From NCBI GenBank assembly GCA_000002445.1, contig CP000070.1, positions 1,152,001-1,216,000 of the forward strand: a stretch of 64,000 nt of DNA. Direction: 5' to 3'. Position 1 is the stretch's first letter. Each line of letters opens with the position of its first letter. Under the pieces are notes generated by a model. It had not been told where the DNA came from. It saw only the letters and a program-made list of their open reading frames with translations, and made no database searches. Below, piece by piece: positions 3,995 through 64,000 of this stretch. The position numbers and the translations under genes are program-made. The DNA comes from Trypanosoma brucei. Lineage: Eukaryota.

Positions 3995-6900
3995 CTAGTA
4001 ACCTGCCAAGTCCCAGATGCTCGCGGCACGTTCGACTTCACTACAAACACCATCAGCACACTTTCGTACGCGTGGCGCACCTCTCATTGGGCTTAGTGAG
4101 GGAAATAGGTAATTGTCGACGTACATTTTCTGGTAGCGCCACTCCGCCGACTCCAGGAATGAAACAGTCACTTTGCTGTAAAAAGGTTGAAGGTGCTGTG
4201 CACCCCTCAATGATTGGGCTCTCTGTTTCCGAAGATGAAGTTTGTAGATTTCTGCATAACCGATCGGTGCCGCGGTGTTACCCTGCTGACGTGCTTTTTG
4301 ACAAACCTGCAGACTCCCACAGGGATTGGAACGGCTCAACGTAACAAATCTCGCTTCCCCTGATGCGGAGGCAGCGCCGTGCGTCGCCGTTCCTGCACAC
4401 TCTGTACCTCGAACCTTTTTCCTGCGCTTGACATTGTAGCCCGTGAAATCGCTATCATTGGCAATAGAACCCTGAACAGCCGACTTGCGCATAAGCAGAG
4501 GGGCCCACGGCCGGTCACGAAGATGCGGGGGAGTGCTGCACCGTCCATCCGTAATGTTGATTGACCAAACAACAGCTTTCTCATGCTGTTTTGGGTGTTC
4601 AGCTTCATCAAAAGTCACCAGGGAGCCAGTGCTCTGTTCGTTCGCCTGATATTCCGCAGGTACCGGGTCTTCCAGTGGCTCAGTGACATCTTTCACCATT
4701 GATAAAGCGGGTTCATTCCGATGTGGCCGCTTGCACAACAGTGAAGCGTCAGTGTACGGTTCAGTAGCGCGTGCCTCATCCTTAAACAGAGCGGTGTTAT
4801 TCGCTTCAATTTCACAATGACCACCTCCGGACCCCGCAACATCACCCGCATATTCTTCAAAACACAAGGATAGACTGGGTGGCCATTGCACCAGTGATCG
4901 ATAACAGTTCAGCTCGTCCCACCGCATTTCATTCCTCGCGTAATACTCAGCTCGTTCATTGTGCCACCGATTTCGTGCTTCTCTTTGAACAAGTTTGAAT
5001 AAAGAAATGTAGCACTGTTCCTCAACACAAGAGACCATATCACTGTAAGAAGAAACAACTTGGTTCGATTGGTCTTCGGTCCACACATAACCCTTGGTTG
5101 GTTCAGCAGTCGGATACGTCGCCTCGACAGCGGGTAATTCATGCTGGTCAGCTACGTCTGCAACACGGAGTGGGGTGGTGACGCGGTGTTCGAGAGCAGC
5201 AGAGTAACGAATCGCTTCAGCGCCCGTGGTAGTGGAAATTGATATATCACAACCACTCCTGTCACTCACGCCAAACAGTGATTTGCCAGCACCTTCAAGC
5301 GGCTCCCTGGTAGTGCTCAGTTCATGGAGCACGGTCGTCAAAACCGTATTCGCACGTTGCTCAGAATCAAGAACAATCTTATCATCTGAGCTTGCACAAA
5401 TACCAGCCACATCAACGCTAAGCATGCTTCCACTCCTCAGCGTGTTCGAGCGCATGACGCGCCGTAACAAGTTTGTAACACCCTCATCTTCTTGGCTTTC
5501 GATGGTGCCTCTTATTGCACATTCCTCACGTTGCAATTCACTAAGCAACTGTTGACACTGGAGGTAGCGTCTTTGTTCCTGTAATCGATATGCACTACGC
5601 TCAGCAGCAGAAGCAGCGGATTCACCTGCCCATCGTAACAAGTTTGTAACACCCTCATCTTCTTGACTTTCGATGGTGCCTCTTATTGCGCATTCCTCAC
5701 GTTGCAATTCACTAAGCAACTGTTGACACTGGAGGTAGCGTCTTTGTTCCTGTAATCGATATGCACTACGCTCAGCAGCAGAAGCAGCGGATTCACCTGC
5801 CCATCGTAACAAGTTTGTAACACCCTCATCTTCTTGGCTTTCGATGGTGCCTCTTATTGCACATTCCTCACGTTGCAATTCACTAAGCAACTGTTGACAC
5901 TGGAGGTAGCGTCTTTGTTCCTGTAACCGATATGCACTACGCTCAGCAGCAGAATCAGCGGATTCACCTGCCCATCGTAACAAGTTTGTAACACCCTCAT
6001 CTTCTTGGCTTTCGATGGTGCCTCTTATTGCGCATTCCTCACGTTGCAATTCACTAAGCAACTGTTGACACTGGAGGTAGCGTCTTTGTTCCTGTAATCG
6101 ATATGCACTACGCTCAGCAGCAGAAGCAGCGGATTCACCTGCCCATCGTAACAAGTTTGTAACACCCTCATCTTCTTGGCTTTCGATGGTGCCTCTTATT
6201 GCACATTCCTCACGTTGCAATTCACTAAGCAACTGTTGACACTGGAGGTAGCGTCTTTGTTCCTGTAATCGATATGCACTACGCTCAGCAGCAGAATCAG
6301 CGGATTCACCTGCCCATCGTAACAAGTTTGTAACACCCTCATCTTCTTGGCTTTCGATGGTGCCTCTTATTGCACATTCCTCACGTTGCAATTCACTAAG
6401 CAACTGTTGACACTGGAGGTAGCGTCTTTGTTCCTGTAATCGATATGCACTACGCTCAGCAGCAGAATCAGCGGATTCACCTGCCCATCGTAACAAGTTT
6501 GTAACACCCTCATCTTCTTGGCTTTCGATGGTGCCTCTTATTGCACATTCCTCACGTTGCAATTCACTAAGCAACTGTTGACACTGGAGGTAGCGTCTTC
6601 GTTCCTGTAATCGATATGCACTACGCTCAGCAGCAGAATCAGCGGATTCACCTGCCCATCGTAACAAGTTTGTAACACCCTCATCTTCTTGGCTTTCGAT
6701 GGTGCCTCTTATTGCACATTCCTCACGTTGCAATTCACTAAGCAACTGTTGACACTGGAGGTAGCGTCTTCGTTCCTGTAATCGATATGCACTACGCTCA
6801 GCAGCAGAATCAGCGGATTCACCTGCCCATCGTAACAAGTTTGTAACACCCTCATCTTCTTGGCTTTCGATGGTGCCTCTTATTGCACATTCCTCACGTT

Positions 6901-8212
6901 GCAATTCACTAAGCAACTGTTGACACTGGAGGTAGCGTCTTCGTTCCTGTAATCGATATGCACTACGCTCAGCAGCAGAATCAGCGGATTCACCTGCCCA
7001 TCGTAACAAGTTTGTAACACCCTCATCTTCTTGACTTTCGATGGTACGCCCGACCACAGCATCCCTGTGTTGAGTTTCGGTCAGCAACTCGTAGCAACGG
7101 TTGCCCAGCGGTGGAGTGCGGGCGCCAACGTTTTGTTTGTTGGGGATGTGTTTCGAATAGTTTGGCAGTGAGGAGCGGTCTTCTTGCGGTTCTCGACGCA
7201 ATATGGAATGATGACTCCAACTACCACCTCGATCACTCCTTTCAGCATGAATTAAATCGTGCGTGGACGAGGCGGAGGCGCTGTTTAGTTTGTCGTTTCG
7301 TAATGCAGAAGGTCGTGCATATCCTGATGTGTTTTCTGTGGAAAAGTGAGGAAAACGGTGATCCAAGTTTGTGACACTAAGGAGATCAGCGGCTGTTACC
7401 GAACTGTGGCCTTCCTCCAGTTCTGCCATATACAGCAACCCGAAAGCCTTCTCGTAGTGCGACGCCAAGAGCCCGTAAGCTGCCCTGCGCCACTGCAACG
7501 TGCGTGTTGCAAACTCCCCGGCAGGATCGTACTCAAAGGAAGAGAAGGACGCGCTCGATGCCTTGCTCAGTAAAGAATCGAATGACGACTCTCCGGAGTG
7601 TAACAATGCGGATGTAGTGTTCATTAATGGTGGTGAGTCTCCTAGCACTGTGGTGGCACCGAGAAATAAAGCAGATGTAACGTTGGTTTCTGAGAAGCCA
7701 GTTGACTGCTTGCGCCTCTGTCTTGAAAGATACTCATCGCTCTTCCCCCGCAACCCCATATTAGGTTGCTTCGTGTCTTTTCCGACGATAGCTGATTCAG
7801 CCCTTTTGGGTAAATGCTTCGCGTGAGTCTGGGTGAGCCCCTCGATGTTTTTGCAAAGAGGAGTCCACTTGGTCTCACTTTTGATATCGTCCGTTCTACT
7901 TTTAAATTCGGGCTTCAATCCCATCTCTATATTTTTTACAGTATGATGATGTTTCTTCGGACTTACACAACTTTTTGGCTGCGATTGCGCCGTTGTGCCA
8001 CTCCGCAACGAACTGTGGTACCCCTTAAGAGCAGAGCCATGGCTGGGGAGGCGAACCAAACCTGTGTGGGCCACCGAGTTCTGACGCATACGTTTAAGGT
8101 AATATTCAATACGAGCAATGTGGCGATCCACCGACGCTATGGATGAAGCAACACCCTCCATCTGACAGGTGGTCGCTTCCTCCTCCTGTAATAATGAGCT
8201 AATACAGAGCAA
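3995..8212 (-). CDS. Large repeat-containing hypothetical protein, 1405 aa, with about 9.3 tandem 57-aa units (GTIESQEDEGVTNLLRWAGESADSAAERSAYRLQE[RQ]RRYLQCQQLLSELQREECAIR) in its central region
   Basis: A single long minus-strand ORF spans the 171-bp nucleotide repeat array in frame. Unique N- and C-terminal domains flank the repeats. Confidence 0.6.
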   Translation of the reverse strand: MLCISSLLQEEEATTCQMEGVASSIASVDRHIARIEYYLKRMRQNSVAHTGLVRLPSHGSALKGYHSSLRSGTTAQSQPKSCVSPKKHHHTVKNIEMGLKPEFKSRTDDIKSETKWTPLCKNIEGLTQTHAKHLPKRAESAIVGKDTKQPNMGLRGKSDEYLSRQRRKQSTGFSETNVTSALFLGATTVLGDSPPLMNTTSALLHSGESSFDSLLSKASSASFSSFEYDPAGEFATRTLQWRRAAYGLLASHYEKAFGLLYMAELEEGHSSVTAADLLSVTNLDHRFPHFSTENTSGYARPSALRNDKLNSASASSTHDLIHAERSDRGGSWSHHSILRREPQEDRSSLPNYSKHIPNKQNVGARTPPLGNRCYELLTETQHRDAVVGRTIESQEDEGVTNLLRWAGESADSAAERSAYRLQERRRYLQCQQLLSELQREECAIRGTIESQEDEGVTNLLRWAGESADSAAERSAYRLQERRRYLQCQQLLSELQREECAIRGTIESQEDEGVTNLLRWAGESADSAAERSAYRLQERRRYLQCQQLLSELQREECAIRGTIESQEDEGVTNLLRWAGESADSAAERSAYRLQEQRRYLQCQQLLSELQREECAIRGTIESQEDEGVTNLLRWAGESADSAAERSAYRLQEQRRYLQCQQLLSELQREECAIRGTIESQEDEGVTNLLRWAGESAASAAERSAYRLQEQRRYLQCQQLLSELQREECAIRGTIESQEDEGVTNLLRWAGESADSAAERSAYRLQEQRRYLQCQQLLSELQREECAIRGTIESQEDEGVTNLLRWAGESAASAAERSAYRLQEQRRYLQCQQLLSELQREECAIRGTIESQEDEGVTNLLRWAGESAASAAERSAYRLQEQRRYLQCQQLLSELQREECAIRGTIESQEDEGVTNLLRRVMRSNTLRSGSMLSVDVAGICASSDDKIVLDSEQRANTVLTTVLHELSTTREPLEGAGKSLFGVSDRSGCDISISTTTGAEAIRYSAALEHRVTTPLRVADVADQHELPAVEATYPTAEPTKGYVWTEDQSNQVVSSYSDMVSCVEEQCYISLFKLVQREARNRWHNERAEYYARNEMRWDELNCYRSLVQWPPSLSLCFEEYAGDVAGSGGGHCEIEANNTALFKDEARATEPYTDASLLCKRPHRNEPALSMVKDVTEPLEDPVPAEYQANEQSTGSLVTFDEAEHPKQHEKAVVWSINITDGRCSTPPHLRDRPWAPLLMRKSAVQGSIANDSDFTGYNVKRRKKVRGTECAGTATHGAASASGEARFVTLSRSNPCGSLQVCQKARQQGNTAAPIGYAEIYKLHLRKQRAQSLRGAQHLQPFYSKVTVSFLESAEWRYQKMYVDNYLFPSLSPMRGAPRVRKCADGVCSEVERAASIWDLAGY
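5455..7045. repeat. In-frame tandem array of a 171-bp unit, about 9.3 copies, more than 97% identical, lying inside the CDS at 3995..8212
   Basis: The string cgtaacaagtttgtaacaccctcatcttctt recurs at 5463, 5634, 5805, 5976, 6147, 6318, 6489, 6660, 6831 and 7002, an exact 171-bp period. Only a few SNP positions vary: tctttg/tcttcg, cagaagcagcgg/cagaatcagcgg, cttattgcac/cttattgcgc, cttggc/cttgac and a single taaccg. Confidence 0.9.
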
Positions 8213-9757
8213 CGTGAATTGGTATCAAGTGTCTTTGGATATATATTTTGCGGAGTCGCAGTGCGGTGCGAAGTTGTTAGTTCTTTAACCGACCGAGTCT
8301 CCGCAGTTGAAAAATTGTATGTATGCGTGTATGTGTGTCTATGTCTATGCGCTGGTAAGAAAAGGAACAGTGCCTGAGGAAGCAAAGATAACAATGTAGT
8401 CTTCGTTCCCTTTTGTACACAATTTCACAAGGCGGAACATCGGACCAAACGGCAATGATGATAGAAGTAATTTTGGAAAGCAATCGGTTTTAACAAAAAC
8501 AACAGAGTAACTTTCCATCAAACACATTATGTGACTAGTTATATGCTGATCTTTGTGTAGCCCGTCGGTGCACAGATAGGTTTTCTCCTGTAAGAATGAA
8601 GAAAATGTACGAAAGAAAGCACATAAACACCAAAGAGATATTTTTAGTCATTTTTGTCGGCAATTGTGTTGCCCGGAACAGCAACCCCCACGTTTGGGCA
8701 ATCGATCCTCCTTGAAAAGCGGGGTTTTCTAATAATATACAACTTCACATAGCTTTCCTTGTCCCCTGCCGACGACTGCACCACACCACACCCCCCCCCC
8801 TCCCACTGATAAGGAGGAGAAAAAGAAGAGAGGGAATATATTAAATTGAGGACCGCGACTACAAAACTTATTCAGGAAATTTTGGAGGTGATATGAATAA
8901 TGGAGTTCATGACATTTCACCCTGGTCTGCAGCCTACATAGCCTCCCCACATTTTGCACGCGTACAAACACTATTGCATGCTAGCTTGGGCCCATCACTG
9001 GCATCAATGCCGTAAGTAATGCGCATTAGCTCACATTTGCGGCATCTACACACAAAAAGAAAAACAGCAGGGAGATGAAGAGGAAGGAGACATACGCAAA
9101 CACACCATTCAGCGTGGTGACAAGATACATTCAGGTCAGTGCTACACGGGCGAAGTGATGGCACAGGGCGTGTGTGTGTGTGTGTGTGTGAGTGGGGGAA
9201 GGCACAACATGTATACGAGTAAGAACACCGACAGAACAACAAATGGGGTATGAGGCGAAACCATCCTCATATCCCCCTCCCACTGGCACTCAACTAAAAA
9301 GAAAAAAAACTCTTTTTAGTAGACAACTTCCCCTTATTCACGCACCACACGAAGGGAAATTGTCCCACCGCGTCAAAGCACTGAAAGCCATGTGACAGGT
9401 CTGCCGAATATCCCTTGTTACTGAACACGCATCCTTACTACACAAACCACAAATATCTCGAAAAGTTGGAGAAAGCAAACATACCAACGATATCGACAAA
9501 CTCACAATGGAAAACAGATCGCATGTCTCAGAACAGTAAACTACAAGACAGTAGCCCGACTACCTCCAGTAAAGTGCAAAATGGATGGCCGCAATCGTAC
9601 AGCTTGGCCCCTCAAGTACACACAAAAGACAGTGTATACTTGAAAGCCAAACAGAGATACTGTGAGGCACAACACCTCAACTCTCGCCCGTGCTTAAACA
9701 ACCCAACACCCTCGCACACTTTCCTCCGCCATATTACCGACACAAACCCACTCCGTC

Positions 9758-11650
9758 TCAGTTAAGTTCATTTTCAACCCGTTTAAGGGTTAAAATAACT
9801 TCCTCAATAGTGTCTTGCTGCAAAGGCATCTTATCCAGCTTGTTCATCATCGCCTCCAGTTCTCCAAGCCTCTCCACTGATATTGAGGGAGGCGCTCGCC
9901 TCGTAAAAGTATCGGAGTCATCACTGCTGCTCGTTGAAGATGAGGAATAATAAGATGACGATGTCGACGAACTGGTCGGCAATGGACTCAACATCTCCGT
10001 AGAGGAGTACTCTTCTAATCTCCTCTTACTTCGTTTGGAATCTTTGCCATTATCCCTGCCGCCCAGCCGACCAGACTTCACTTTCGATATACGACTACCC
10101 CGATCCGCTTTCTCGCGCTTCACCTTTGGTGGCTTCTGCCTTCGTTCATGATCACTCTTTTCCTTTTTTCTCCTGAGATCAGCTTGCCCCACCCGTCTTC
10201 GGCTCTCCTTTTCTTTCTTAAGTGACTTGCGCCCGTGTTTTGCGCGCAGAACCTGGGACGATTTGGACGAGATCGATATTGCTGCCCCTTCCTTTTGACG
10301 GCTACTCACGCGATCAGGTTTCTCCCATACGTCATCTTCATCCAGTATCCCGCCCCCTTCGCCTTCACTACCACCGGACGGACGTGTTTCAGTTTTTGTG
10401 GAGGTGGAGGACACCAGCGAAAGCCGTAGCCGGGGGCGCGGTGGTTTGCCACTGGGGTCCGCATGTGCGGGCACGGGGGCGTCTTTCCCATTCTCCGTTG
10501 ATTGTACCGGTGGTTTCCTGCGCAGTACTAACCTACGTCCGCCGTTATTTACCTGATGGCTAACAGTGTCGTCCGTGCGACTGCCGTTCGCGTCACATAC
10601 AAGCTTCTCATCTGCGCTTTGCACGGCCCCGTCACATGCTGCTTGGTATCGAGAAGGAAATAATGCAGCCAACTCATCAGCAGGAAGCGGCTCCATCGAT
10701 ATACCGTCGCCATTTGCGTCCATCATGCGGCGAAGCACCCCTGTCCCCGTCCCCGTGCGTGGCCCACATCCCACAGTGTCCTGTCCACACAATGTCGAGA
10801 AGAGTTCCTGATCCGCTTCTAACTGCTGTTTTTCATACGTCTCTGCATCTCTTACAGCACGATAGCCGATCTTCACAAGCTTGCGACACTGTGCAGCGAG
10901 GATGCTATCAGACCCATTGTAGTGTTCACAGTTACAGCTCATCAGGGTTAGGAGTGCCTTAAGATCGGCGTAGTCCGCCACAGTAGCATCCCAAACGCTA
11001 CAATAGAGTGTCGAAAGGGACACGGGACGCCTTACCCGCTGGTAATAGTTTGGGGCCTCCAGCTCCGTCACCGGCAGCAAAAAATCTGAACCTCCCGTAC
11101 AACTAAACCGCCACAGTTCATCCACGGCACGGGTCAGACAACACCGCCGGCGCCATGCCCGGCGTTGAGCTTTCATGCCTTCAACTTCACCTAATTTAAT
11201 CAACTCAGCCTCGCGCTCCGCTTCTACCTCAGAGGAGAGAAGCAAAACCTCCTCCATCAGCCGCTGCACACGTATGGATTCATAGTACGCTGTGACGGCA
11301 CCGTCCCGGCGCGTGTCCCCAATTGGCACTCCGTTGGAGAAATTTTCCGAAAGGAAACCATTATTTTCGACTCCACCATTAGCTATGGAACGGCGGTCTT
11401 TCCTCCGTCGTGTGGGTATAACAAAGTGTCTACCTCCGGTTGAAGTGGATGGCACAGTAATCTCCGCCCACTTCCTATCCCGCCACTTACACATCAGGGT
11501 CGACAGAGTCTCAGAAAACTCTTGGGGGTTCTGCACTGTTGAAAGGTGCTGGGCAAACGCCGTGCAAAAGGTATTACTGATGTCAACAGATACAAGGTGC
11601 TGCCACGGTGAACAGGAGGGCGCGCGACGTGCGGAGGTGCCCCCCGACAT
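9758..11650 (-). CDS. Bromodomain-containing protein (bromodomain factor), 630 aa
   Basis: The central segment FLLPVTELEAPNYYQRVRRPVSLSTLYCSVWDATVADYADLKALLTLMSCNCEHYNGSDSILAAQCRKL fits the bromodomain consensus: F..PV, P.YY..I..P..L.T, and the conserved YN acetyl-lysine-anchoring Asn. It is followed by a long Lys/Arg/Ser-rich tail. Confidence 0.7.
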   Translation of the reverse strand: MSGGTSARRAPSCSPWQHLVSVDISNTFCTAFAQHLSTVQNPQEFSETLSTLMCKWRDRKWAEITVPSTSTGGRHFVIPTRRRKDRRSIANGGVENNGFLSENFSNGVPIGDTRRDGAVTAYYESIRVQRLMEEVLLLSSEVEAEREAELIKLGEVEGMKAQRRAWRRRCCLTRAVDELWRFSCTGGSDFLLPVTELEAPNYYQRVRRPVSLSTLYCSVWDATVADYADLKALLTLMSCNCEHYNGSDSILAAQCRKLVKIGYRAVRDAETYEKQQLEADQELFSTLCGQDTVGCGPRTGTGTGVLRRMMDANGDGISMEPLPADELAALFPSRYQAACDGAVQSADEKLVCDANGSRTDDTVSHQVNNGGRRLVLRRKPPVQSTENGKDAPVPAHADPSGKPPRPRLRLSLVSSTSTKTETRPSGGSEGEGGGILDEDDVWEKPDRVSSRQKEGAAISISSKSSQVLRAKHGRKSLKKEKESRRRVGQADLRRKKEKSDHERRQKPPKVKREKADRGSRISKVKSGRLGGRDNGKDSKRSKRRLEEYSSTEMLSPLPTSSSTSSSYYSSSSTSSSDDSDTFTRRAPPSISVERLGELEAMMNKLDKMPLQQDTIEEVILTLKRVENELN

Positions 11651-11730
11651 TGTGGAGGGACAACGAAGAGACCTTTATAGAGCAAAATAAACGGTTAAAC
11701 AAACACAAAGAGCGGGAAAGAAGGCACATA

Positions 11731-12210
11731 ACCTAGTAAAGGCAAGGAAGAAAAACCATTTCAAAAACGTTTTGGTTAATTGACTAACCTCTGAAAAAAT
11801 GTTCACGTACGGTCCATTAATAAGAAAGTTACCTTACCTAACCAACTCTCCCCCATGGCAACGAAGCACACACACGACTCCATGGGGGCACTAGGTTTCA
11901 ATAAATCACGATAAGAAACTAACAACCTCTCGAACAAAATAAAAAATAAAATACGAAACCGCTCACACAACCCAGTAAAGTAAGTAAGGAAAGATCATCC
12001 CACAAACGTTTTGTTAAAATGATGCCGCCGTTTTCGTCTTGGTTAATTGACTAACCGCTGAAAAAAATGTTCGTGTCCAGCTCGCTAATAAGGGAGTCAC
12101 GTCATCTAACCAACTCCCCCATGAAGTTGTATGTGCTTCACCTCCATGGGGGAAGTTGGTGTCAACAAATCACAATACGATAAGAAACTAACAACTTCTC
12201 AAACGCAGAA
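11731..12210. repeat. Degenerate tandem duplication of a roughly 240-bp intergenic element (copy A about 11731-11940, copy B about 11969-12210); each copy contains a conserved inverted repeat
   Basis: Blocks shared by the two copies include cc[tc]agtaaag, ccat(tt)caaaaacgttttg, cttggttaattgactaacc[tg]ctgaaaaaatgttc, aaccaactc(t)cccccatg...ccatggggg and caataaatcac(a)atacgataagaaactaacaac[ct]tctc. Inverted-repeat arms are at 11850-11858/11880-11888 and 12110-12123/12145-12159. Confidence 0.6.
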
Positions 12211-12230
12211 TTTCAAACTCTGATATTGTA

Positions 12231-14258
12231 TCAGCAAGAGCCCTCACTGGTGCAAACGACAAAACCAGTTACCTCCTTCCTCAGAAGAGACACATCCCGT
12301 GTTGCTACACGCGGTTTGAGAGAGCCGGATCGTGCTTCCACAGTAGCGAGTACCGCGCGCAGGCTCGGATGCACTGCTTCACCAGGGCATAGTGCGAGCA
12401 CCTTCTCATAGAGATACTTGCAACTCTCTGCTGGGTCAGTTACAGACTCAACACCTTCAGCTCCAACCGCGTCCTCACCGAGAATAGCATGAAGCACCGC
12501 CGCAGGAAACTTTGCCCAGTGCGCAGTGCTGGCGATCACGAGGGGTCGTCGGGTCTCTGGATGCTCCCGTCGGTACTCCGTAGCCGCATGGAGGGCGACA
12601 GCGGTGTGCGGGTCCAACAGTTTACCGGTCGCGTCAAATATTTTCTTTATAGCCGCAGCGCAATTGGACTCATTACATTTGCTTGACCAAAACGTTTCCT
12701 GCATTCTCTGCAGAACCTTGCCGCAAACCTCAAACCTCTTTTCAAACTCAAGTCGTCCCATCTGCTCGGAAACATACTTCGAATCACCGTCAGAGAGTAT
12801 AAAGAGAAACCGCTCCACATTTGACGCCTTCAATATATCAATTGAAGGAGAAGCGGTAGGTACCAAATGACGGTGGCTGATATCGTAGCAGCCAGTACTT
12901 ACAAACTCGTAGAGAACGTCGTTGGTGTTGCTGGCGACGATGAGTTTGCCGACGGGGAGTCCCATGAGCTTCGCCACGTACGCGGCGAGAATGTTGCCGA
13001 AGTTTCCACTCGGCACGACAAAGTCCACCTTGTCGCCAAATGCAAGGGCCCCTGTAACCTTGTCCCCATTCTGCTGTATACACTTTCGGTATGCCCAGAA
13101 ATAATATACAACCTGAGGAATCAGTCGGCCCCAGTTGATGCTGTTGGCGGAGGAGAGGCGCACGCCAGCGTCATTAACCAATTCCCTCTCCAGCTTTTCG
13201 TCGGCAAACAACTTCTTTACGCTTTGCTGACAAAAATCAAAGTCTGATTCAACACCAATGACGCGAACAGTGGTACCGTTGTCATACGAAATCATATGCA
13301 TCTTCTGCACTGGAGACACGCCTCGGAGGGGGTAAAACACCATAACACGACAAGGACTCTTCGCGTTAACAAATCCGCTGATAGCTGCGACCCCAGTGTC
13401 CCCCGAAGTGGCTGTTAGAATCATGTATTGCAGAGGTTTGCCGGCGGCTGTGCTGGAACTCACAACCTCTCCACCTCCACACCCATTGTTGTCACCGCCC
13501 TTCTGGTTCGCGACAGCCGCCACCGCCGTGTCAAAGTAGCGCGGAAACAACTGCAGTGCGAAGTCTTTGAATGCCCCTGTCGGCCCGTGATACAACTCAA
13601 GCAGATACATGTTATGCCAATCCGAGTGGTTCTCCGGCACATCCGCCACCGACGTGGCACGCGGATGTATGGGTGTAAGAGGGCACACATCCTTCAACCC
13701 GTTCCACCGTGAGGGATCGTATGCCTCCAAGATGTGCTTGGAAAGGATGTGCGGTTTCAAGCTCATGTCTGTCAGCCGCTCCAACAGGGACCGTGCCGCC
13801 TCCACGTAACTGAGGTTGGGGGCAGTGCAGAGGTACTTGAGCTGTGAAGCCGTTACCTGTGGAATCTTGCGCAGAGTGAAGAGCCCCCCGTCGGACGCCA
13901 GACCGTCACGAATGACACTGAGAAACGATACAGAAGGCTCGACAGCCCCCCGAGTCGACGAGAACTGCCGGTGGCTGACCAACGACGTCACCTCCGTGAT
14001 GACCTCTTCCACCGTGCTATCCTCACCCCACACAAATCGGCAGTCGTATATTTCCTCTTCTTCTCCAGGAGACTGTCGCTTCATGTACAACCCGGCAGCC
14101 GTTTGGTCGATACAGAGACGAAATACGTCGGAGGGTTCCCCCTTTTCACCATCACGAGGGTATGTGAACAACTGTGGACCCGTTACACTTAGCAGACCAT
14201 CAACCACGCGCTCCTTCACCTCCACTGAGGCTGTGCCACATACGCGTAAGGTGAGCAT
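12231..14258 (-). CDS. Threonine synthase (PLP-dependent, long eukaryotic/fungal-type form), 675 aa
   Basis: Carries the PLP-lysine motif GPTGAFKDFALQ and a glycine-rich loop with downstream tryptophan-synthase-beta-like fold signatures (SGNFGNILAAY). The overall length matches the long threonine synthase family. Confidence 0.8.
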   Translation of the reverse strand: MLTLRVCGTASVEVKERVVDGLLSVTGPQLFTYPRDGEKGEPSDVFRLCIDQTAAGLYMKRQSPGEEEEIYDCRFVWGEDSTVEEVITEVTSLVSHRQFSSTRGAVEPSVSFLSVIRDGLASDGGLFTLRKIPQVTASQLKYLCTAPNLSYVEAARSLLERLTDMSLKPHILSKHILEAYDPSRWNGLKDVCPLTPIHPRATSVADVPENHSDWHNMYLLELYHGPTGAFKDFALQLFPRYFDTAVAAVANQKGGDNNGCGGGEVVSSSTAAGKPLQYMILTATSGDTGVAAISGFVNAKSPCRVMVFYPLRGVSPVQKMHMISYDNGTTVRVIGVESDFDFCQQSVKKLFADEKLERELVNDAGVRLSSANSINWGRLIPQVVYYFWAYRKCIQQNGDKVTGALAFGDKVDFVVPSGNFGNILAAYVAKLMGLPVGKLIVASNTNDVLYEFVSTGCYDISHRHLVPTASPSIDILKASNVERFLFILSDGDSKYVSEQMGRLEFEKRFEVCGKVLQRMQETFWSSKCNESNCAAAIKKIFDATGKLLDPHTAVALHAATEYRREHPETRRPLVIASTAHWAKFPAAVLHAILGEDAVGAEGVESVTDPAESCKYLYEKVLALCPGEAVHPSLRAVLATVEARSGSLKPRVATRDVSLLRKEVTGFVVCTSEGSC

Positions 14259-27892: not shown

Positions 27893-27925
<33 letters not shown>
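27813..27925. repeat. Compound microsatellite: (GT)14 at 27813-27841 and (TA)15 at 27896-27925, separated by an A/C-rich spacer
   Basis: Direct reading. Similar (TA)n tracts occur at 27103-27120, 28554-28578, 37148-37170, 45807-45830 and 61079-61107, and a (GT)10 tract occurs at 9170-9190. Confidence 0.9.
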
Positions 27926-27927
<2 letters not shown>

Positions 27928-29278
27928 CTCATCCACTGTATGCATAAACACATCGCCACTGAAGGAAAAGAAGTGCAGCAAAAGTAATTTTTTTTTTACC
28001 AAAACAAAACTGAACAAAAAAGGAGGGAACCTCAAAAACAAACAAAGACATGAAATAAAAAAAAGGTGAAAAAACAAAACGAGCAAAAACAAAAAGGAGG
28101 AAGAGGAAGAGGAAACAAAACAAAAAAGGGAGAAGATACGTTCCCTGCTCACCATTTGTTATACGGGTAACACATGTGCGCCAATTAGTACCATTTATGG
28201 GTGTTTTCTTTTTCTTTTTTTTTCCTTTTGAAAATATGTAATTAATTATTTTTCTCCCTTTCTCTCATAACAGCGGGGTACTATCACTTCTTGCTCAGCT
28301 GAACTCAGTCGGGTTTGGTTACTTGTTTTCGCCCCAACTACCAAAAATAAAAAAAAGAAAAGGTACGCCATCCTGGAGAGTATTGTTTCCTTCCTATTCT
28401 TTTACCCATATCGCCCACTTTTCTTTTATTTATTTTCCTTCATTTTGATTTGGTTCCAGCTTAATAATGAGGACACTGTTACACCCAAATGCTACTGATC
28501 CTACATATACACTGCCCCCAACCGCTTCGAAAAAAACAAAAAGAAAAAAAGAGTATATATATATATATATATATATATGCCGCGTGTGTGGTCCCATATG
28601 AACGAAGAAACCATTTTACGTGATTTACCTCCCTTTTCCCTTTTCTCTTCCCTTTTTATTGACCAAACAGTCAAAACACAAAAATACAATCACAACCAAA
28701 CACGTCAGTTCTCAATACTCTCTTTCCAAACCCTTCGCTGTACATCCATTTGTTATTCGCTACCGGGACATACGGTGGGGGCCCATACCTTTCTTTTTTT
28801 TCCTTTTTTTTCCTTTTTCTTTCTTTTATTTATTTATTTATTTATTTTTCTGCCTCACTCATCCACTATTTGCATATTTAAATAAGAAGGGGGGAAATTG
28901 TCTATATTAATAGCTGATCTGTTATACGTTGTTACGAAGCGCTATTTACCCTGCTGGAAACTGGTAATAGACATTAAAGGAACTGCGAGGAGAAATTAGT
29001 GGTAAGAAACTTAGTGAGTTGAACACTACTCAGAATGGAAACAGGAGAGGGGGGAAAAAAAAAGCAGAGGCAAAAAGAGAAAAGAGGTAACACTTATTGG
29101 CCTCTTGCTATGTTCTTCCTTTTTTTTTCTTTTACTCACCTAAAAAAAAAAAAAAATGCACAACTGTCGTTGCAAAACCAACTCCGTATGCTCCCAAACC
29201 TTGTCCACCTCCACGTTCCGATCTATGTTAATTCAGTCACTTACTTCATCTGCTCACACCCATGTTGGCTTCCTCGTG

Positions 29279-36002: not shown

Positions 36003-38118
36003 AAGTCCCAGCTACAAGGGATAAGGAAAAAAAAAAGACCGTAAGTTCTAAGTCCAAAATAATTCTTTTCCGTACTTCCTTCTTCTAAGTTTCGGGAAAT
36101 CTTCTTGTTATATCCACGCAATTTGTTTCCTTCTCCCTAAAAGCCTGCTGCTCGGTAGGGGAGATGGCAGCGCAATCGTTGGTAAGCACACCCACGCAAA
36201 CGTTGAGACAAAACACCTCCTTCCTTTTCTACTGATGTGTGTGTCCGAACCTTTGACAATTATACCTTTGGCAACACACACACACACACACAAAGGGATC
36301 CAAATGGTGGTTCAAAGTTTTCCTCTTTTAGTCTGATGTTGAAGCGCGATGGCGGGAGTGCATCAACGCAAACAGCGAAATATATTTTTAATAAAAAAAA
36401 ATGGAACGCGAGAAAAGGAGAGGAAGAAAAAAGATTATGAATAAGGTAGGAAAAAAAAACATCTCCACAAACTGAAATTATAGCAGTTGAGTCAAAAAAT
36501 ACACGAACGAGTTCGCACATGCATCGCTTTGCGACACCGGTAGGTCATATGTACCAAATGCATAATCAAATGGTACAACACATTTCTTCAGGTGCATGGA
36601 TGAGAGGTCAGTTAGGGATTTAAGAAAGAGAGGTACAAGAATAATAATAATAATAATAACGGAAAAAAAAAGAGCACAAAAGTGGGGAAACAAACAAAAG
36701 AGGATTAGGATTATAGCAAGGGGTGGGATCACGGCATCGAACAATAAATAAAAGAAGAACAAAACAAGTCTAAATAAAACTTCCAACAATGACCGGCAGA
36801 CTCCAACGCGTGCACCGGTCCGAATTCTCGCAAAACCACGAAAATTATGTTGCTGAAGAAGTTGATTTACTTCAATTCACCAAATCACCGCCTTCCCCCC
36901 TTCCGTGCCTCCCTTTAATTTTTATTTTCCACCTCTCCCTCTCTCTTTCTCTTCTTCACATGATTGCATTCATACGCTTCTTTTTATTTGTTTCACGCCA
37001 TCGCAGTTGTCACACGTCACCTCCAGTTAAACAATAAACTTCTCCTCGTGTGTGTCACTCGCCACATCCAATCATCTGTTTTCTCCCTTTTCTTCTAAAA
37101 ATTTTATTTTTTCGTGGAAGTAACATATGAAAGGTGGGAAGGGGGAAATATATATATATATATATATATACGCATAAAAACAGAAGATGCGATACGAAGG
37201 GAAGAAAAATTGGGAGGCAAGCTCGCGCATGTGGGCACATTGGAAAGAAACCAGAAAAGAAGGGAATGTCAACACAATTGACGTTTCGCCCCCCTTTTTA
37301 AAAAAAAGAGAAAAAAGACAAACACTTTTTATTGCAACTGTACCACTCACATCTTTGCCGTTTCAACACTACGCACTGTTACAACCCACCTCGCACATCT
37401 CCAAAAATATTCCGTGACCTTCTCATTCCGCTTTCTGGTTTTGTTTCTTATTTGTTTACCCGTTTAACATCAACTAACTCTCCCTTATTTCATCCTCCTT
37501 AGCGGCCACAACTTCCTTCTTTGTCAATTTCGATTCCAATTTCTTTTTCTTTTCTTCTGCCTCCTGTTCTTTCGACGGGTCACATCAGTGAGGCGGAAAG
37601 AGATGAAAGAGATAAAAGAGATAAAAGAGAAAGAAGAGGAGGAGTTTATCAAATATTATTCAGTACCTTTTTTTGGTCCCTCCTTTCCCTGTATCTGCAA
37701 AGTTTTTTTAAATTTTACCCCATATTAAATACGGGAACATATATATATATATATATGCAACCTTCCCTCTTTGTCACGTTACCCCCCCCCCCGTCCCCGC
37801 CCTCTTCTTTTCTTATACTTTTTGTTCTGTCCTCCTTTTCTTATCCTTTGTCCTTCACCTTCCTTCATTCCTTCACTCATCCGTTCCTCCATTCCTTTTT
37901 TTTTAAATACCTTCCGTCTTAGACCTTCGGTTAGCAAATATATATATATATATTAAAAGGGAGGGTACCCCCACGGCACTCTGATATGACCACACATCTC
38001 AGCTCTTCTCATCCCTCATTCCTTCTTTTCTTTTCTCTTTTTTCTTTTTTTCCTCTCTCTCTTCCTTCCCCCCACCATCCAACTATTCAACTTTTCATTT
38101 ATCTTTTTTCTTTCCGTC

Positions 38119-38700: not shown

Positions 38701-39557
38701 GTGTTACCGTAAACGTTCTCTCTTCTTATATCTCCTCCACTTACACACTTATCCTCTCTTCTATACAAATGAAAAACAAACAAACGAAAACAAACAAAAA
38801 AATCTTCTTAAGAAATAAGAAGAAGATTTTTTTTCTTAAAAAAAAAAAGAAGAAACAAAACCGATTAAAATAAGTGGAATTATTATAGTTAATGACCTTT
38901 TACCTTCTTTAATGCAGGTACAGTTAATTTGAGATACTGCTATTCGTATTTACTTGACACCTAGAACCATTAAAAGATTATGAAAAAAAAATGGGGGTAG
39001 TGGAAAAATGAAAAGTAAAGTAAAGAATAGAAAAGAAAAGATGACAAACATTCAGCCACGCATCGCGAGGCAGGCGCGCAAAAGAGGAGGAGGAGGAGGA
39101 GGAGGGAAAACAAAAAAAAACAAAAAAACAAAAAGAAAACACACCCACAAATACAAACACAAACACATATAATCCCCTTCCCTGTGATAACACCCAACTA
39201 CTTCAACCCTCCACTCCCTATATAAATTCCTAAAGCCCTTCCTCTTCCCAGCCCTTCTTACAAATGACTTGAAGCGTTTTGTTTGTTGTTAATTTTTTTT
39301 TTTCTCGTTTGCATGTTTGTTTGTAACTGCCGCAAAAGGTGAGGAAAGAAGCGGCACAAGAAAAATCATAGTAATAATAATAAAAACAACTATAACGAGT
39401 AAAAATAATAATAATAGTAATAGAAATAATAGGAGAAGAGAAGTAAAATTAACGGCGACCACCACTTTCTTGGTGTTGAGCAAATCAAACAAACAAACAA
39501 ACATGCAAAGGAGTGGTTTTTTTTCTTGTTTAAAAAAGGGGAGGGGATCACATGACG

Positions 39558-45800: not shown

Positions 45801-45837
<37 letters not shown>

Positions 45838-49437: not shown

Positions 49438-50661
49438 TTAACTTGCCAGAGACTCTTTTGCTTTTCTGGTCACATGCGTTTCCGGTTCCATTCCCAGCAC
49501 AAGTGCTTTTTGAAGATCAACCAGTGTTCCTTGCTTCATATCCATGTCACTCAGCAATGTCCGATGCCGTGCAGCGCTACCCAGTACATCGTCGCGCATC
49601 GTATTGCAGGCCGCCTTACGTCTCTCGTAATCAAGCAACAACTTCTTTGATCCTACCATAGGCATTTTTTCGCGTATTCTAAGATTACTGGCAGTGAAGT
49701 GGTCACGCTGACGCTTCGTTTGTGCTAACTTATCACGCAGGCCGTTCAGCTCTTCCTCCGTCGACGCTACCTGCCGCCGAAGTTGGCCGTTTTCAATCTT
49801 CATAAACTCTAGTTTTTCCTTTACATGTGTTAGAACATGAATTGTGGTGGTTACTTTACGTCGCAACCTCACAATGTCTTCGTTCCGCTCCTCAATCTTC
49901 TCATTCAGATTTGTGTTCTCAATTTTCAGTTGCTCAAAATCAATGAGGCTCATTCCATCCTGCTGCTGATCACGTTGAGCCATAGCTCTTTGCAACTCCT
50001 CCATTTCGTACCGCAACAAATTATACCGTATGCGCGCCCGCTGAATTAAGCGACGCTGAAGGGCATCCCTGTTGAGGAATTCGTCAATTTCCTCTTTGGT
50101 CAGTCGCTTGTTCGTGCGCACAAACTGCACACGCTCTGCAAGTTCTCTAATGTACTGACGAAACATCTCCTCGTGTTTTTGAGAAGAGTCAATAGTGCCC
50201 TGGTGTCGTGACTGCATTTCTGTAAAGGCCGCCTCTGCCGCCTCACAACGGGAACGTTGCTGTTGCCATTCTTCCCTCATCTGCCATATGGATATCCAGT
50301 ATTGTTGTTCTGCCTCGACTGTCATAGCCTGGTGTTGGTTCAGGTCTTCACCCTTCCGCTGCCGCTGGGCTGTGAAGTGTTGCGTCAGCAGTCGCTGAAG
50401 TGCTACACTGCGCTCGACAACACTGTTGTAGCGGTTGACAAGTTCCCTGTACTCCTCCTTGAAGGTGACGCGTGGCTCCGCTTCCACACCCTCAGCAGCC
50501 GCAGCAGAAGCTGCGGCTGCAACTGCAACGGTGGTGGTGAAGTTAGCCCGTTTCTCTGCCTCCCGTTGAGCACAGAACTCCTTCCAGCGCTGCTGGATGA
50601 CGGTGGCCGCCTTCATTTGCTGCTCCTCCTCCCTCACCTGCTGGTCATCATACTCGTACAT
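49438..50661 (-). CDS. Coiled-coil protein with an N-terminal IQ motif, 407 aa
   Basis: Contains an IQ-like motif, ATVIQQRWKEFCAQREAEKR, followed by a long heptad-rich charged sequence. Confidence 0.5.
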   Translation of the reverse strand: MYEYDDQQVREEEQQMKAATVIQQRWKEFCAQREAEKRANFTTTVAVAAAASAAAAEGVEAEPRVTFKEEYRELVNRYNSVVERSVALQRLLTQHFTAQRQRKGEDLNQHQAMTVEAEQQYWISIWQMREEWQQQRSRCEAAEAAFTEMQSRHQGTIDSSQKHEEMFRQYIRELAERVQFVRTNKRLTKEEIDEFLNRDALQRRLIQRARIRYNLLRYEMEELQRAMAQRDQQQDGMSLIDFEQLKIENTNLNEKIEERNEDIVRLRRKVTTTIHVLTHVKEKLEFMKIENGQLRRQVASTEEELNGLRDKLAQTKRQRDHFTASNLRIREKMPMVGSKKLLLDYERRKAACNTMRDDVLGSAARHRTLLSDMDMKQGTLVDLQKALVLGMEPETHVTRKAKESLAS

Positions 50662-61076: not shown

Positions 61077-61109
<33 letters not shown>

Positions 61110-63724: not shown

Positions 63725-64000
63725 TATTTAATGTATCGTCCAAACAAAAATGTCAACTCTAACGATGAATATCAAGCAGTACAAAACAAAAAAGAGAAGA
63801 GAAGAGGAAAGAAATCATATGGAAGCTCCTTGTCTTTCCTCTTCTGTCCCTCTTGACCCGTCTACTTCCCAGTTTCTCCGCTTACGTTAGGCAGAAGTAT
63901 CGTTCACCGAAGGGTCTTAATCAAGCTGAAGTTCCTTTACGCTGATTAGCCAATCTTTACAAATACGGTAACATCCACCTGGAAAACAAAAATAATGTAT

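What the first reader, a model, noticed from the sequence alone, without database searches (positions are those of the whole stretch)
11731..12210. Duplicated intergenic element with a conserved inverted-repeat hairpin
The spacer between the threonine synthase stop (12231) and the bromodomain gene start (11650) contains two diverged tandem copies, about 75-80% identical, of a roughly 240-bp element. Within each copy the same G5/C5-containing inverted repeat is preserved: copy A has cccccatgg / ccatggggg (11850-11858 / 11880-11888), and copy B has ccaactcccccatg / catgggggaagttgg (12110-12123 / 12145-12159). The loop sequences of about 21 nt differ, and copy B's longer stem is complementary through flanking changes. 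Conservation of pairing potential while the loop sequence diverges is what is expected of a selected RNA or DNA secondary structure. Alternatives are a 3'-UTR regulatory hairpin of the threonine synthase mRNA, a small RNA, or a remnant of a degenerate dispersed repeat.
Basis: seen in the sequence. Interest (0 to 1): 0.5.

Follow-up and report, generated by a model that had tools for sequence, protein, structure and literature searches.

The report
Duplicated 3'UTR segment, flipped hairpin loop
The spacer after the Trypanosoma brucei threonine synthase gene holds an old tandem duplication whose two copies each keep a hairpin, but the loops differ because one was flipped end-to-end, an ordinary DNA copying accident, not evidence of a selected RNA structure.

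Summary
The window is T. brucei TREU927 chromosome 7 (window = chr7 coordinate minus 1,152,000). The ThrS (Tb927.7.4390)-BDF4 (Tb927.7.4380) spacer holds two head-to-tail copies of a ~260-nt unit, about 74-82% identical. Each has a perfect 9-bp G5/C5 stem and a 21-nt loop. The loops did not diverge: loop A is the reverse complement of loop B (11/12 core, P about 0.0005-0.002), and with one loop flipped the copies align straight through the hairpin. Inversion between inverted-repeat arms keeps the stem automatically. The arms differ at the background rate (5 of 34 positions plus an indel), with no compensatory change. Published mapping puts the ThrS poly(A) site at 11804 and the BDF4 splice acceptor at 11672, so both hairpins lie in the mature 427-nt ThrS 3'UTR. 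Rfam finds nothing, the window holds no other copy, and T. cruzi, T. conorhini and T. rangeli have no counterpart. Best reading: a lineage-specific tandem duplication followed by template-switch loop inversion, probably neutral. As a side effect, the two hairpins can pair with each other in a predicted 44-48-bp long-range helix. All seven wobble positions are G·U on the transcribed strand, a weak hint of function.

The parts
11936..12204 (-). Copy B of the duplicated unit. It is the upstream copy in the direction of transcription and lies wholly inside the ThrS 3'UTR.
   Evidence: Repeat blocks D1-D5; alignments; BLASTN E = 6.6e-23.
11680..11935 (-). Copy A of the duplicated unit (downstream copy). 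It spans the end of the ThrS 3'UTR, the poly(A) site and most of the polypyrimidine spacer.
   Evidence: Its tail aligns weakly with the B/A junction (P = 0.03).
12109..12160 (-). Hairpin B. Perfect 9-bp stem 12115-12123/12145-12153, 21-nt loop 12124-12144, and a 6-bp outer extension 12109-12114/12155-12160 with a 1-nt bulge.
   Evidence: I3, I9; -31.4 kcal/mol, z = -4.8.
11841..11897 (-). Hairpin A. Perfect 9-bp stem 11850-11858/11880-11888, 21-nt loop 11859-11879, and a weak 4-bp outer helix 11841-11844/11894-11897 across an internal loop.
   Evidence: I13; -24.4 kcal/mol, z = -2.5.
11859..11879 (.). Loop A. It is the reverse complement of loop B (12124-12144), with core GAAGCACAcACA against GAAGCACAtACA.
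   Evidence: I1, I2; inverted local score 10 against direct score 3; P = 0.0005 by shuffling, 0.002 against random window 21-mers.
12124..12144 (.). Loop B, inverted relative to loop A. It is A/C-rich on the transcribed strand, so it is probably the flipped copy (inference).
11804..12230 (-). Mature 3'UTR of ThrS (Tb927.7.4390), 427 nt. The predominant poly(A) site is at 11804, with dispersion 4.94 nt.
   Evidence: Kolev et al. 2010 Table S13. The coordinate offset of 1,152,000 was checked against the CDS ends and the AG at the splice site.
11673..11803 (-). Spacer between the ThrS poly(A) site and the BDF4 trans-splice acceptor. It is T/C-rich and ends in AG at 11674-11673.
11651..11672 (-). 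22-nt 5'UTR of BDF4 (Tb927.7.4380), with the splice acceptor at 11672.
   Evidence: Kolev et al. 2010 Table S3 row: transcript 1163672..1161178.
12013..12040 (-). 28-nt insertion present only in copy B. It looks like an imperfect local duplication of the adjacent CGTCTTGGTTAATTGA.
   Evidence: Alignment gap; 11/15 match.
11941..11948 (-). UAUUUUUU (RBP10-type motif) at the B/A junction, inside the ThrS 3'UTR.
   Evidence: the motif is defined in PMC5568443.

Best explanation
This is a lineage-specific tandem duplication of about 260 nt of the ThrS-BDF4 inter-gene region of Trypanosoma brucei.

Origin. The ancestral unit ran from just after the ThrS stop codon to about the BDF4 splice acceptor. 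It already carried a quasi-palindrome (AACCAACT-CCCCCATGG ... CCATGGGGG-AGTTGGTT). Both copies inherited the hairpin. Later, or at the same time, the 21-nt spacer of one copy (probably B) was inverted between its own inverted-repeat arms. The likely route is intra-palindrome template switching during replication, or recombination between the arms. Either leaves the stem and the loop length unchanged.

Present state. Only the downstream processing signals are used, so the whole upstream copy and the hairpin of the downstream copy are now part of the 427-nt ThrS 3'UTR.

What is shown and what is inferred. Shown: the duplication, the loop inversion, and the location in the mature 3'UTR. Inferred: the order of events, the mutational mechanism, and that the hairpins are not themselves under selection.

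Side effect. The inversion makes the two hairpin regions complementary to each other along their whole length. The mRNA can therefore, in principle, form a 44-48-bp long-range helix or a 13-bp loop-loop contact.
For: Organism and genes
- The window's ThrS protein is identical to TREU927 XP_846062.
- Gene identifiers are confirmed from papers.

Duplication
- establish it.
- It is the only non-coding repeat of 60 nt or more in the 64 kb.

Loop inversion
- Inverted local score 10 against direct score 3, P = 0.0005-0.002.
- Both loops are 21 nt and both stems are 9 bp.
- The flanks stay collinear, and the flipped alignment is contiguous at 81.8% identity.
- Flipped-loop identity is about 16/21, the same as the background.

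No excess conservation of pairing
- The arms show 5 substitutions in 34 positions plus an indel. The extension is lost in copy A.
- Polymorphism at 12157 breaks a pair in T. b. equiperdum IVM-t1.

Processing sites
- Poly(A) site at 11804 with dispersion 4.94; splice acceptor at 11672.

Nothing else fits
- No Rfam family.
- No novel transcript listed in the spacer.
- No counterpart in the syntenic spacers of T. cruzi, T. conorhini or T. rangeli.

Known mutation class
- Loop inversion by template switching, and spacer inversion between inverted repeats, are documented (PMC8794818; PMC8604942 abstract).
Against: - All seven transition-type departures from Watson-Crick pairing between the two hairpin regions are G·U on the transcribed strand, with no A·C. 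The simple null gives P = 0.012. Three of the seven are adjacent, so the independent events may number about 5 (P about 0.04). This pattern is what RNA-level constraint would produce.
- The only core-stem polymorphism (12123, C to U on the transcribed strand) keeps a G·U pair.
- ThrS mRNA is strongly stage-regulated: about 8-10-fold higher in procyclic forms, and it falls after RBP10 induction. Its 3'UTR therefore does carry regulatory information.
- There is no outgroup from the Salivaria (T. congolense, T. vivax). The polarity and age of the events, and conservation outside the T. brucei group, are untested.
Confidence: 0.6

Rival explanations
1. The hairpins are a selected cis-regulatory RNA structure in the ThrS 3'UTR. 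They act as two local stem-loops, as a kissing-loop pair, or as a 44-48-bp long-range helix that compacts about 225 nt of the UTR. The structure modulates mRNA stability or translation between life-cycle stages, or feeds the RNAi machinery.
For: - Both hairpins lie in the mature 3'UTR.
- The folds are stable.
- The long-range helix dominates the predicted ensemble: pair probability 0.95, MFE -130.9 against -108.5 kcal/mol when only local pairs are allowed.
- The loops can pair over 13 bp (-19.6 kcal/mol).
- There are 7 G·U and no A·C on the transcribed strand. The minus-strand duplex is 10 kcal/mol more stable than the plus-strand one.
- ThrS mRNA is stage-regulated.
Against: - No compensatory change, and the arms diverged at the background rate.
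- The stem extension has decayed in copy A.
- A pair-breaking polymorphism occurs in one subspecies.
- No counterpart in the three stercorarian species examined.
- The locus is not among the published siRNA-producing loci whose coordinates I could read.
- Hairpins of this size occur at chance frequency.
- Equilibrium folding ignores co-transcriptional folding, ribosomes and proteins.
Confidence: 0.25
2. The unit is a degenerate member of a dispersed repeat or retroposon-derived family (SIDER-like) that happens to sit twice in this spacer.
For: UTR-resident degenerate retroposons are known in trypanosomatids (from general knowledge).
Against: - No other copy in the 64-kb window at word size 7, E up to 10, or word size 11.
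- CCCCCATGG occurs only in these hairpins.
- The two copies are exactly head-to-tail, as a local duplication would leave them.
- A 28-mer conserved in both copies has no hit in JGI metagenome contigs, which is a weak test.
Confidence: 0.06
3. The duplicated processing signals are functional. Copy B provides an alternative poly(A) site for ThrS (about 12072) and an alternative splice acceptor for BDF4 (AG at 11934/11933), giving transcript isoforms.
For: Copy B keeps T-rich tracts followed by AG. Its end aligns weakly with the real acceptor region.
Against: - ThrS poly(A) dispersion is only 4.94 nt around 11804. The averaged 3'UTR is 424 nt against 427 nt for the predominant site.
- BDF4 is listed with alternative 3'UTR processing only, not 5'.
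- These data are from procyclic forms only.
Confidence: 0.05
4. Each copy encodes a small non-coding RNA: a snoRNA, or a miRNA- or siRNA-like precursor.
For: Trypanosome snoRNAs occur in tandem repeats within polycistrons and in 3'UTRs (Kolev et al. Figure S7 legend). An AGA triplet follows each stem.
Against: - No Rfam hit at gathering thresholds in the whole window. Only chance-level hits appear in the region (E = 1.8 or worse).
- No C/D boxes are conserved between the copies, and there is no pseudouridylation pocket (reading).
- The loop, which would carry guide sequence, is inverted between the copies.
- No novel transcript is listed here.
Confidence: 0.04

Closest known systems
Template-switch mutations and spacer inversion between short inverted repeats (Löytynoja and Goldman 2017, PMC5453318; Mönttinen and Löytynoja 2022, PMC8794818; yeast inverted-repeat spacer inversion, PMC8604942). 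From my own knowledge, also the 'minute inversions' at hairpins in chloroplast non-coding DNA.
   Same: A short spacer flanked by perfect inverted-repeat arms is replaced by its reverse complement. Loop length and stem are unchanged, the flanks stay collinear, and the result looks like a cluster of substitutions in the loop.
   Different: Here the comparison is between two paralogous copies in one genome, not between orthologues on a phylogeny, so the event cannot be polarised. The 21-nt loop is long compared with the mostly 4-nt rRNA loops reported in PMC8794818. The mechanism is inferred from the pattern and was not observed.
Stem-loop elements in trypanosome 3'UTRs, such as the procyclin 16-mer stem-loop and 26-mer (the 26-mer is mentioned in PMC5568443; the rest is from my own knowledge).
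   Same: It lies in the mature 3'UTR of a procyclic-enriched mRNA and forms a stable local hairpin.
   Different: There is no sequence similarity, no experimental evidence of function, and no covariation. The stem is GC-rich and much longer.
Long inverted repeats that produce siRNAs in T. brucei (Tschudi et al. 2012, PMC3447711).
   Same: Two mutually reverse-complementary segments lie in one Pol II transcript of an RNAi-competent organism.
   Different: Those repeats are 422-10,011 bp and 99-100% identical. This one is about 48 nt with 7 G·U pairs and three small internal loops or bulges, and it is not listed among the siRNA loci.

Membership tests
Inverted-repeat spacer (hairpin-loop) inversion / template-switch mutation | The segment is flanked by inverted-repeat arms. 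| tested here: met
   Perfect 9-bp arms in both copies.
Inverted-repeat spacer (hairpin-loop) inversion / template-switch mutation | The spacer of one homologue is the reverse complement of the other, beyond chance. | tested here: met
   11/12 core match. Inverted local score 10 against direct score 3. P = 0.0005 (shuffles) and 0.002 (random window 21-mers).
Inverted-repeat spacer (hairpin-loop) inversion / template-switch mutation | Loop length is maintained and the flanks remain collinear. | tested here: met
   Both loops are 21 nt. The 5' and 3' flanks align in direct orientation.
Inverted-repeat spacer (hairpin-loop) inversion / template-switch mutation | The event can be placed on a phylogenetic branch (ancestral against derived orientation). 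| not testable with these tools
   No salivarian outgroup sequence could be fetched: T. congolense is not on record. All T. brucei-group assemblies share the same orientations.
Selected cis-regulatory RNA hairpin | Lies within the mature transcript. | tested here: met
   Poly(A) site at 11804, 3'UTR of 427 nt.
Selected cis-regulatory RNA hairpin | Pairing is maintained by compensatory (two-sided) changes, or is conserved above background. | tested here: not met
   There are no two-sided changes. The arms are 85% identical against an 82% background. Core stem 17/18, P about 0.13. A pair-breaking polymorphism occurs at 12157.
Selected cis-regulatory RNA hairpin | Strand-specific signature (G·U on the transcribed strand rather than A·C). 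| tested here: inconclusive
   Seven G·U and no A·C in the A:B duplex, P = 0.012 under a simple null. The events are not all independent.
Selected cis-regulatory RNA hairpin | Has a measurable effect on expression. | not testable with these tools
   Needs reporter assays.
Trypanosomatid snoRNA (C/D or H/ACA-like) | Matches a curated covariance model, or has conserved C/D boxes, or a single hairpin with a pocket and a 3' AGA. | tested here: not met
   No Rfam hit at gathering score; only chance-level hits. No box is conserved between the copies and the stem has no internal pocket.
Dispersed repeat / SIDER-like retroposon remnant | Multiple copies at unrelated loci. | tested here: inconclusive
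   None in 64 kb. The whole T. brucei genome was not searchable with these tools.
siRNA-producing inverted repeat of T. brucei | Long near-perfect inverted repeat with mapped 22-25-nt small RNAs. | tested here: not met
   The duplex is only about 48 bp with 7 G·U. The locus is absent from Table 3 and from those supplementary lists of PMC3447711 that give coordinates. Raw small-RNA reads were not available.

The most novel reading that the evidence does not exclude
The loop inversion was retained because it turned two tandem hairpins into a mutually complementary pair. In the ThrS 3'UTR these would switch between two local stem-loops (with kissing loops) and a 44-48-bp long-range helix. This conformational element would contribute to the 8-10-fold procyclic enrichment of ThrS mRNA, or make it a natural Dicer substrate. 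If so, a template-switch mutation would have created a functional long-range RNA structure in a trypanosome UTR.
Probability: 0.1. Interest if true: 0.6.

Novelty: new member of a known kind. Interest (0 to 1): 0.25.

Why it matters
It is mainly a caution. 'Stem kept, loop changed' between paralogues looks like selection for structure, but an inversion between the stem arms produces it for free. Structure-conservation arguments should always compare loops in both orientations.

For trypanosome biology, the case shows how a local duplication lengthened a 3'UTR from roughly 160 to 427 nt by burying an unused set of processing signals. It also shows how one further mutation created the potential for a long intramolecular duplex in a stage-regulated mRNA. 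If that duplex forms in vivo, it would be a simple system for studying long-range UTR structure or endogenous dsRNA in an RNAi-competent parasite.

Tried and rejected
- **Rfam.** The whole window at gathering thresholds and the region at E up to 10 gave nothing meaningful: mir-8499, Prion_pknot and HOTAIR_2 at E = 1.8-7.1.
- **snoRNA reading.** C-box-like GAUGA after hairpin B, and AUGAUGC...CUGA on the plus strand inside the copy-B-only insertion, are not conserved in copy A. Rejected.
- **Small ORFs through the hairpins.** 13 and 26 codons, unrelated because the loop is inverted. Rejected (reading).
- **Tandem Repeats Finder.** It missed the duplication because it is too diverged and has indels.
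- **Fetching the same locus elsewhere.** The window's own ThrS and BDF4 proteins, TREU927 P0122 and T. congolense P0002 are not on record. T. b. gambiense, two T. equiperdum assemblies and one Logan contig were obtained, but they are 98-99% identical and carry no covariation information.
- **Stercorarian spacers.** T. cruzi, T. conorhini and T. rangeli show no homology, no duplication and no equivalent hairpin.
- **Metagenome scan.** A 28-mer conserved in both copies gave 0 hits.
- **Supplementary tables.** None are held for Siegel 2010. The Nilsson 2010 supplements lack these gene identifiers.
- **Bacterial promoter/terminator scan.** Nothing found, and it does not apply to this organism.
- **First global-alignment test of loop inversion.** It gave P = 0.02. 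I replaced it with a local-alignment test.
- **First pair-probability printout.** The long-range partner indices were mis-registered by one position. I redid it from the MFE pair table.

Full report
**Identity of the window**

The 675-aa ORF at 14258..12231 (minus strand) is threonine synthase (ThrS). It is identical to the T. brucei brucei TREU927 protein XP_846062 and 99% identical to the T. b. gambiense protein. The downstream ORF at 11650..9758 carries a bromodomain. Published papers give the gene identifiers as ThrS = Tb927.7.4390 and BDF4 = Tb927.7.4380. The CDS coordinates in Kolev et al. 2010 (1163650..1161758 for BDF4) fix the conversion: window coordinate = chromosome 7 coordinate minus 1,152,000. 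Both genes lie on the minus strand within one polycistron. The IPK-ThrS-BDF4 gene order is also found in T. cruzi and T. conorhini.

**Check of the observation**

The spacer 11651-12230 contains two head-to-tail copies.
- Direct-repeat blocks have a period of 239-269 nt.
- BLASTN finds 174 nt at 73.6% identity, E = 6.6e-23.
- Global alignments give 79% and 81.8%.

The units are best drawn as B = 12204..11936 and A = 11935..~11680 on the transcribed strand. Copy B carries an extra 28 nt (12013-12040) that looks like a further small local duplication. The tail of copy A, which includes the real BDF4 splice acceptor, aligns weakly with the B/A junction (P = 0.03). The unit therefore probably ran up to the acceptor.

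Both hairpins have a perfect 9-bp stem and a 21-nt loop. Both fold stably: -31.4 kcal/mol with z = -4.8 for B, and -24.4 kcal/mol with z = -2.5 for A, on the transcribed strand. The duplication and both hairpins are present in T. b. gambiense DAL972, T. equiperdum OVI and T. b. equiperdum IVM-t1. A Logan read assembly covers copy B and hairpin A before its contig ends near 11838.

**The loops are inverted, not diverged**

The repeat finder reported that 11849-11874 is 81% complementary to 12128-12153 (I1/I2). Loop A (CAACGAAGCACACACACGACT) and the reverse complement of loop B (GAGGTGAAGCACATACAACTT) share GAAGCACA[C/T]ACA. The local alignment score is 10 in inverted orientation and 3 in direct orientation. 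The P value is 0.0005 against shuffles and 0.002 against random 21-mers from the window.

If loop B is flipped, the two copies align without a break through the hairpin. The loop is then about 16/21 identical, the same as the rest of the unit. The sequences outside the 9-bp arms are collinear, so the inversion end-points lie inside the arms.

This pattern is that of spacer inversion between inverted repeats, a known result of template switching during replication (PMC8794818; PMC8604942). Such an event cannot disturb the stem. 'Stem kept, loop changed' is therefore not evidence of selection here. Loop A is G/U-rich on the transcribed strand, like the surrounding spacer, and loop B is A/C-rich. 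This suggests, as an inference, that B is the flipped copy.

**No conservation of pairing beyond background**

- On the 5' side, both copies have AACCAACT. Copy A has an extra CT, and the last arm base differs (G in A, A in B).
- On the 3' side, CCATGGGGG is identical, and the next nine bases differ at four positions.
- Overall there are 5 substitutions in 34 arm positions (85% identity) plus one indel, against an 82% background.
- The 18 core positions are 17/18 identical, P about 0.13.
- No change is two-sided. Copy A has simply lost the outer helix that copy B has.
- Two unpaired blocks are at least as well conserved (32 nt at 94%, 28 nt at 93%).

Among the T. brucei-group assemblies there are about 9 polymorphic sites in 580 nt, and two fall in hairpin B.
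- Position 12123 is C to U on the transcribed strand, which keeps a G·U pair.
- Position 12157 breaks a pair in IVM-t1.

Hairpins with perfect stems of 9 bp or more are about as frequent in the window as in Markov simulations.

**Where the element sits in the transcripts**

Kolev et al. 2010 Table S13 gives for Tb927.7.4390 a predominant poly(A) site at 1163804, a 3'UTR of 427 nt, an averaged 3'UTR of 424 nt and a dispersion of 4.94. That site is window position 11804. Table S3 gives the BDF4 transcript start at 1163672, which is window position 11672, directly after an AG.

All of copy B and the first half of copy A, including both hairpins, are therefore in the mature ThrS 3'UTR. The poly(A) site lies inside copy A, 46 nt after hairpin A and 132 nt before the BDF4 acceptor. 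The homologous signals in copy B are not detectably used in procyclic forms. No novel transcript is listed in this spacer. The duplication thus lengthened the ThrS 3'UTR from roughly 160 nt to 427 nt (inference).

**Other readings tested**

- Rfam gives nothing at gathering thresholds and only chance-level hits in the region.
- snoRNA-like boxes are not conserved between the copies.
- There is no other copy in 64 kb, and CCCCCATGG occurs only in these hairpins.
- The syntenic spacers of T. cruzi, T. conorhini and T. rangeli have no homology, duplication or similar hairpin.
- The locus is not among the published siRNA-producing loci whose coordinates I could read.
- The whole T. brucei genome, T. 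congolense and T. vivax could not be searched with these tools.

**A consequence of the inversion**

Because the stems are palindromic and the loops are now mutually complementary, hairpin region B (12160-12116) is complementary to hairpin region A (11841-11888).
- Folding the mature 3'UTR gives an MFE of -130.9 kcal/mol, with a 44-bp long-range helix at pair probability 0.95.
- With local pairs only, the MFE is -108.5 kcal/mol.
- The loops alone can pair over 13 bp (-19.6 kcal/mol).

In the isolated A:B duplex of 48 pairs, all seven non-Watson-Crick transition positions are G·U on the transcribed strand and none is A·C. The minus-strand duplex is 10 kcal/mol more stable than the plus-strand one. 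A simple composition-based null gives P = 0.012. Three of the seven are adjacent and may be one event, which brings P to about 0.04. This is a weak hint of RNA-level constraint, not a demonstration.

ThrS mRNA is 8-10-fold more abundant in procyclic than in bloodstream forms and falls after RBP10 induction (Mugo and Clayton 2017, S4 Table). A UAUUUUUU motif of the RBP10 type lies at the B/A junction. The UTR is therefore regulatory, but nothing ties that regulation to the hairpins.

**Verdict**

The structural-selection interpretation is not supported. The most likely account (0.6) is a lineage-specific tandem duplication of the inter-gene region, followed by template-switch inversion of one hairpin loop, now carried passively in the ThrS 3'UTR. 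A functional RNA structure remains possible (0.25). The other readings are unlikely. The finding is an ordinary but instructive example of a known mutation class.

Noticed in passing
window 5463-7045 (within ORF 3995..8212, minus strand): There are about nine near-identical (98-99%) 171-bp tandem repeats. They encode 57-aa units (…IESQEDEGVTNLLRWAGESADSAAERSAYRLQE…) in a 1405-aa protein.
   Followed up: partly
window 11941-11948 (minus strand): A UAUUUUUU motif (the RBP10 recognition motif of PMC5568443) lies at the junction of the two copies, inside the ThrS 3'UTR. ThrS mRNA reads per million are 54/40 in bloodstream forms, 378/440 in procyclic forms, and 139/146 then 118/62 after one and two days of RBP10 induction. 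In another table of the same paper, the ThrS row shows four ratio-like values of 0.62-0.76; I did not decode its columns.
   Followed up: partly
whole window: TATTTTTT occurs 14 times against 4.45 +/- 2.13 expected from shuffles, and no shuffle reached 14.
   Followed up: no
window 38796-38833; 63800-63845; 50495-50520: These are other perfect inverted repeats longer than the ones studied. They have a 14-bp stem (AAAAAAATCTTCTT, loop 10), a 13-bp purine-rich stem (AGAAGAGGAAAGA, loop 20), and an 11-bp stem (GCAGCCGCAGC, loop 4).
   Followed up: no
window 12013-12040: A 28-nt insertion occurs only in copy B and resembles the adjacent CGTCTTGGTTAATTGA (11/15). It is a second, smaller duplication event in the same spacer.
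   Followed up: partly
window 9178-9757 (BDF4 3' region; chr7 1161178-1161757): Kolev et al. [quoted passage not shown]
   Followed up: no
window 27896-27924, 28554-28578, 37148-37170, 45806-45830, 61079-61107; 36236-36292: There are several (TA)n microsatellites, and one inverted repeat based on a TG run.
   Followed up: no
L006 3849-4451 and L007 5960-6586: The syntenic ThrS-BDF4 spacers of T. cruzi and T. conorhini share one 50-nt block at 76% identity just upstream of BDF4 (L006 4329-4378 against L007 6475-6524). T. brucei lacks it.
   Followed up: no
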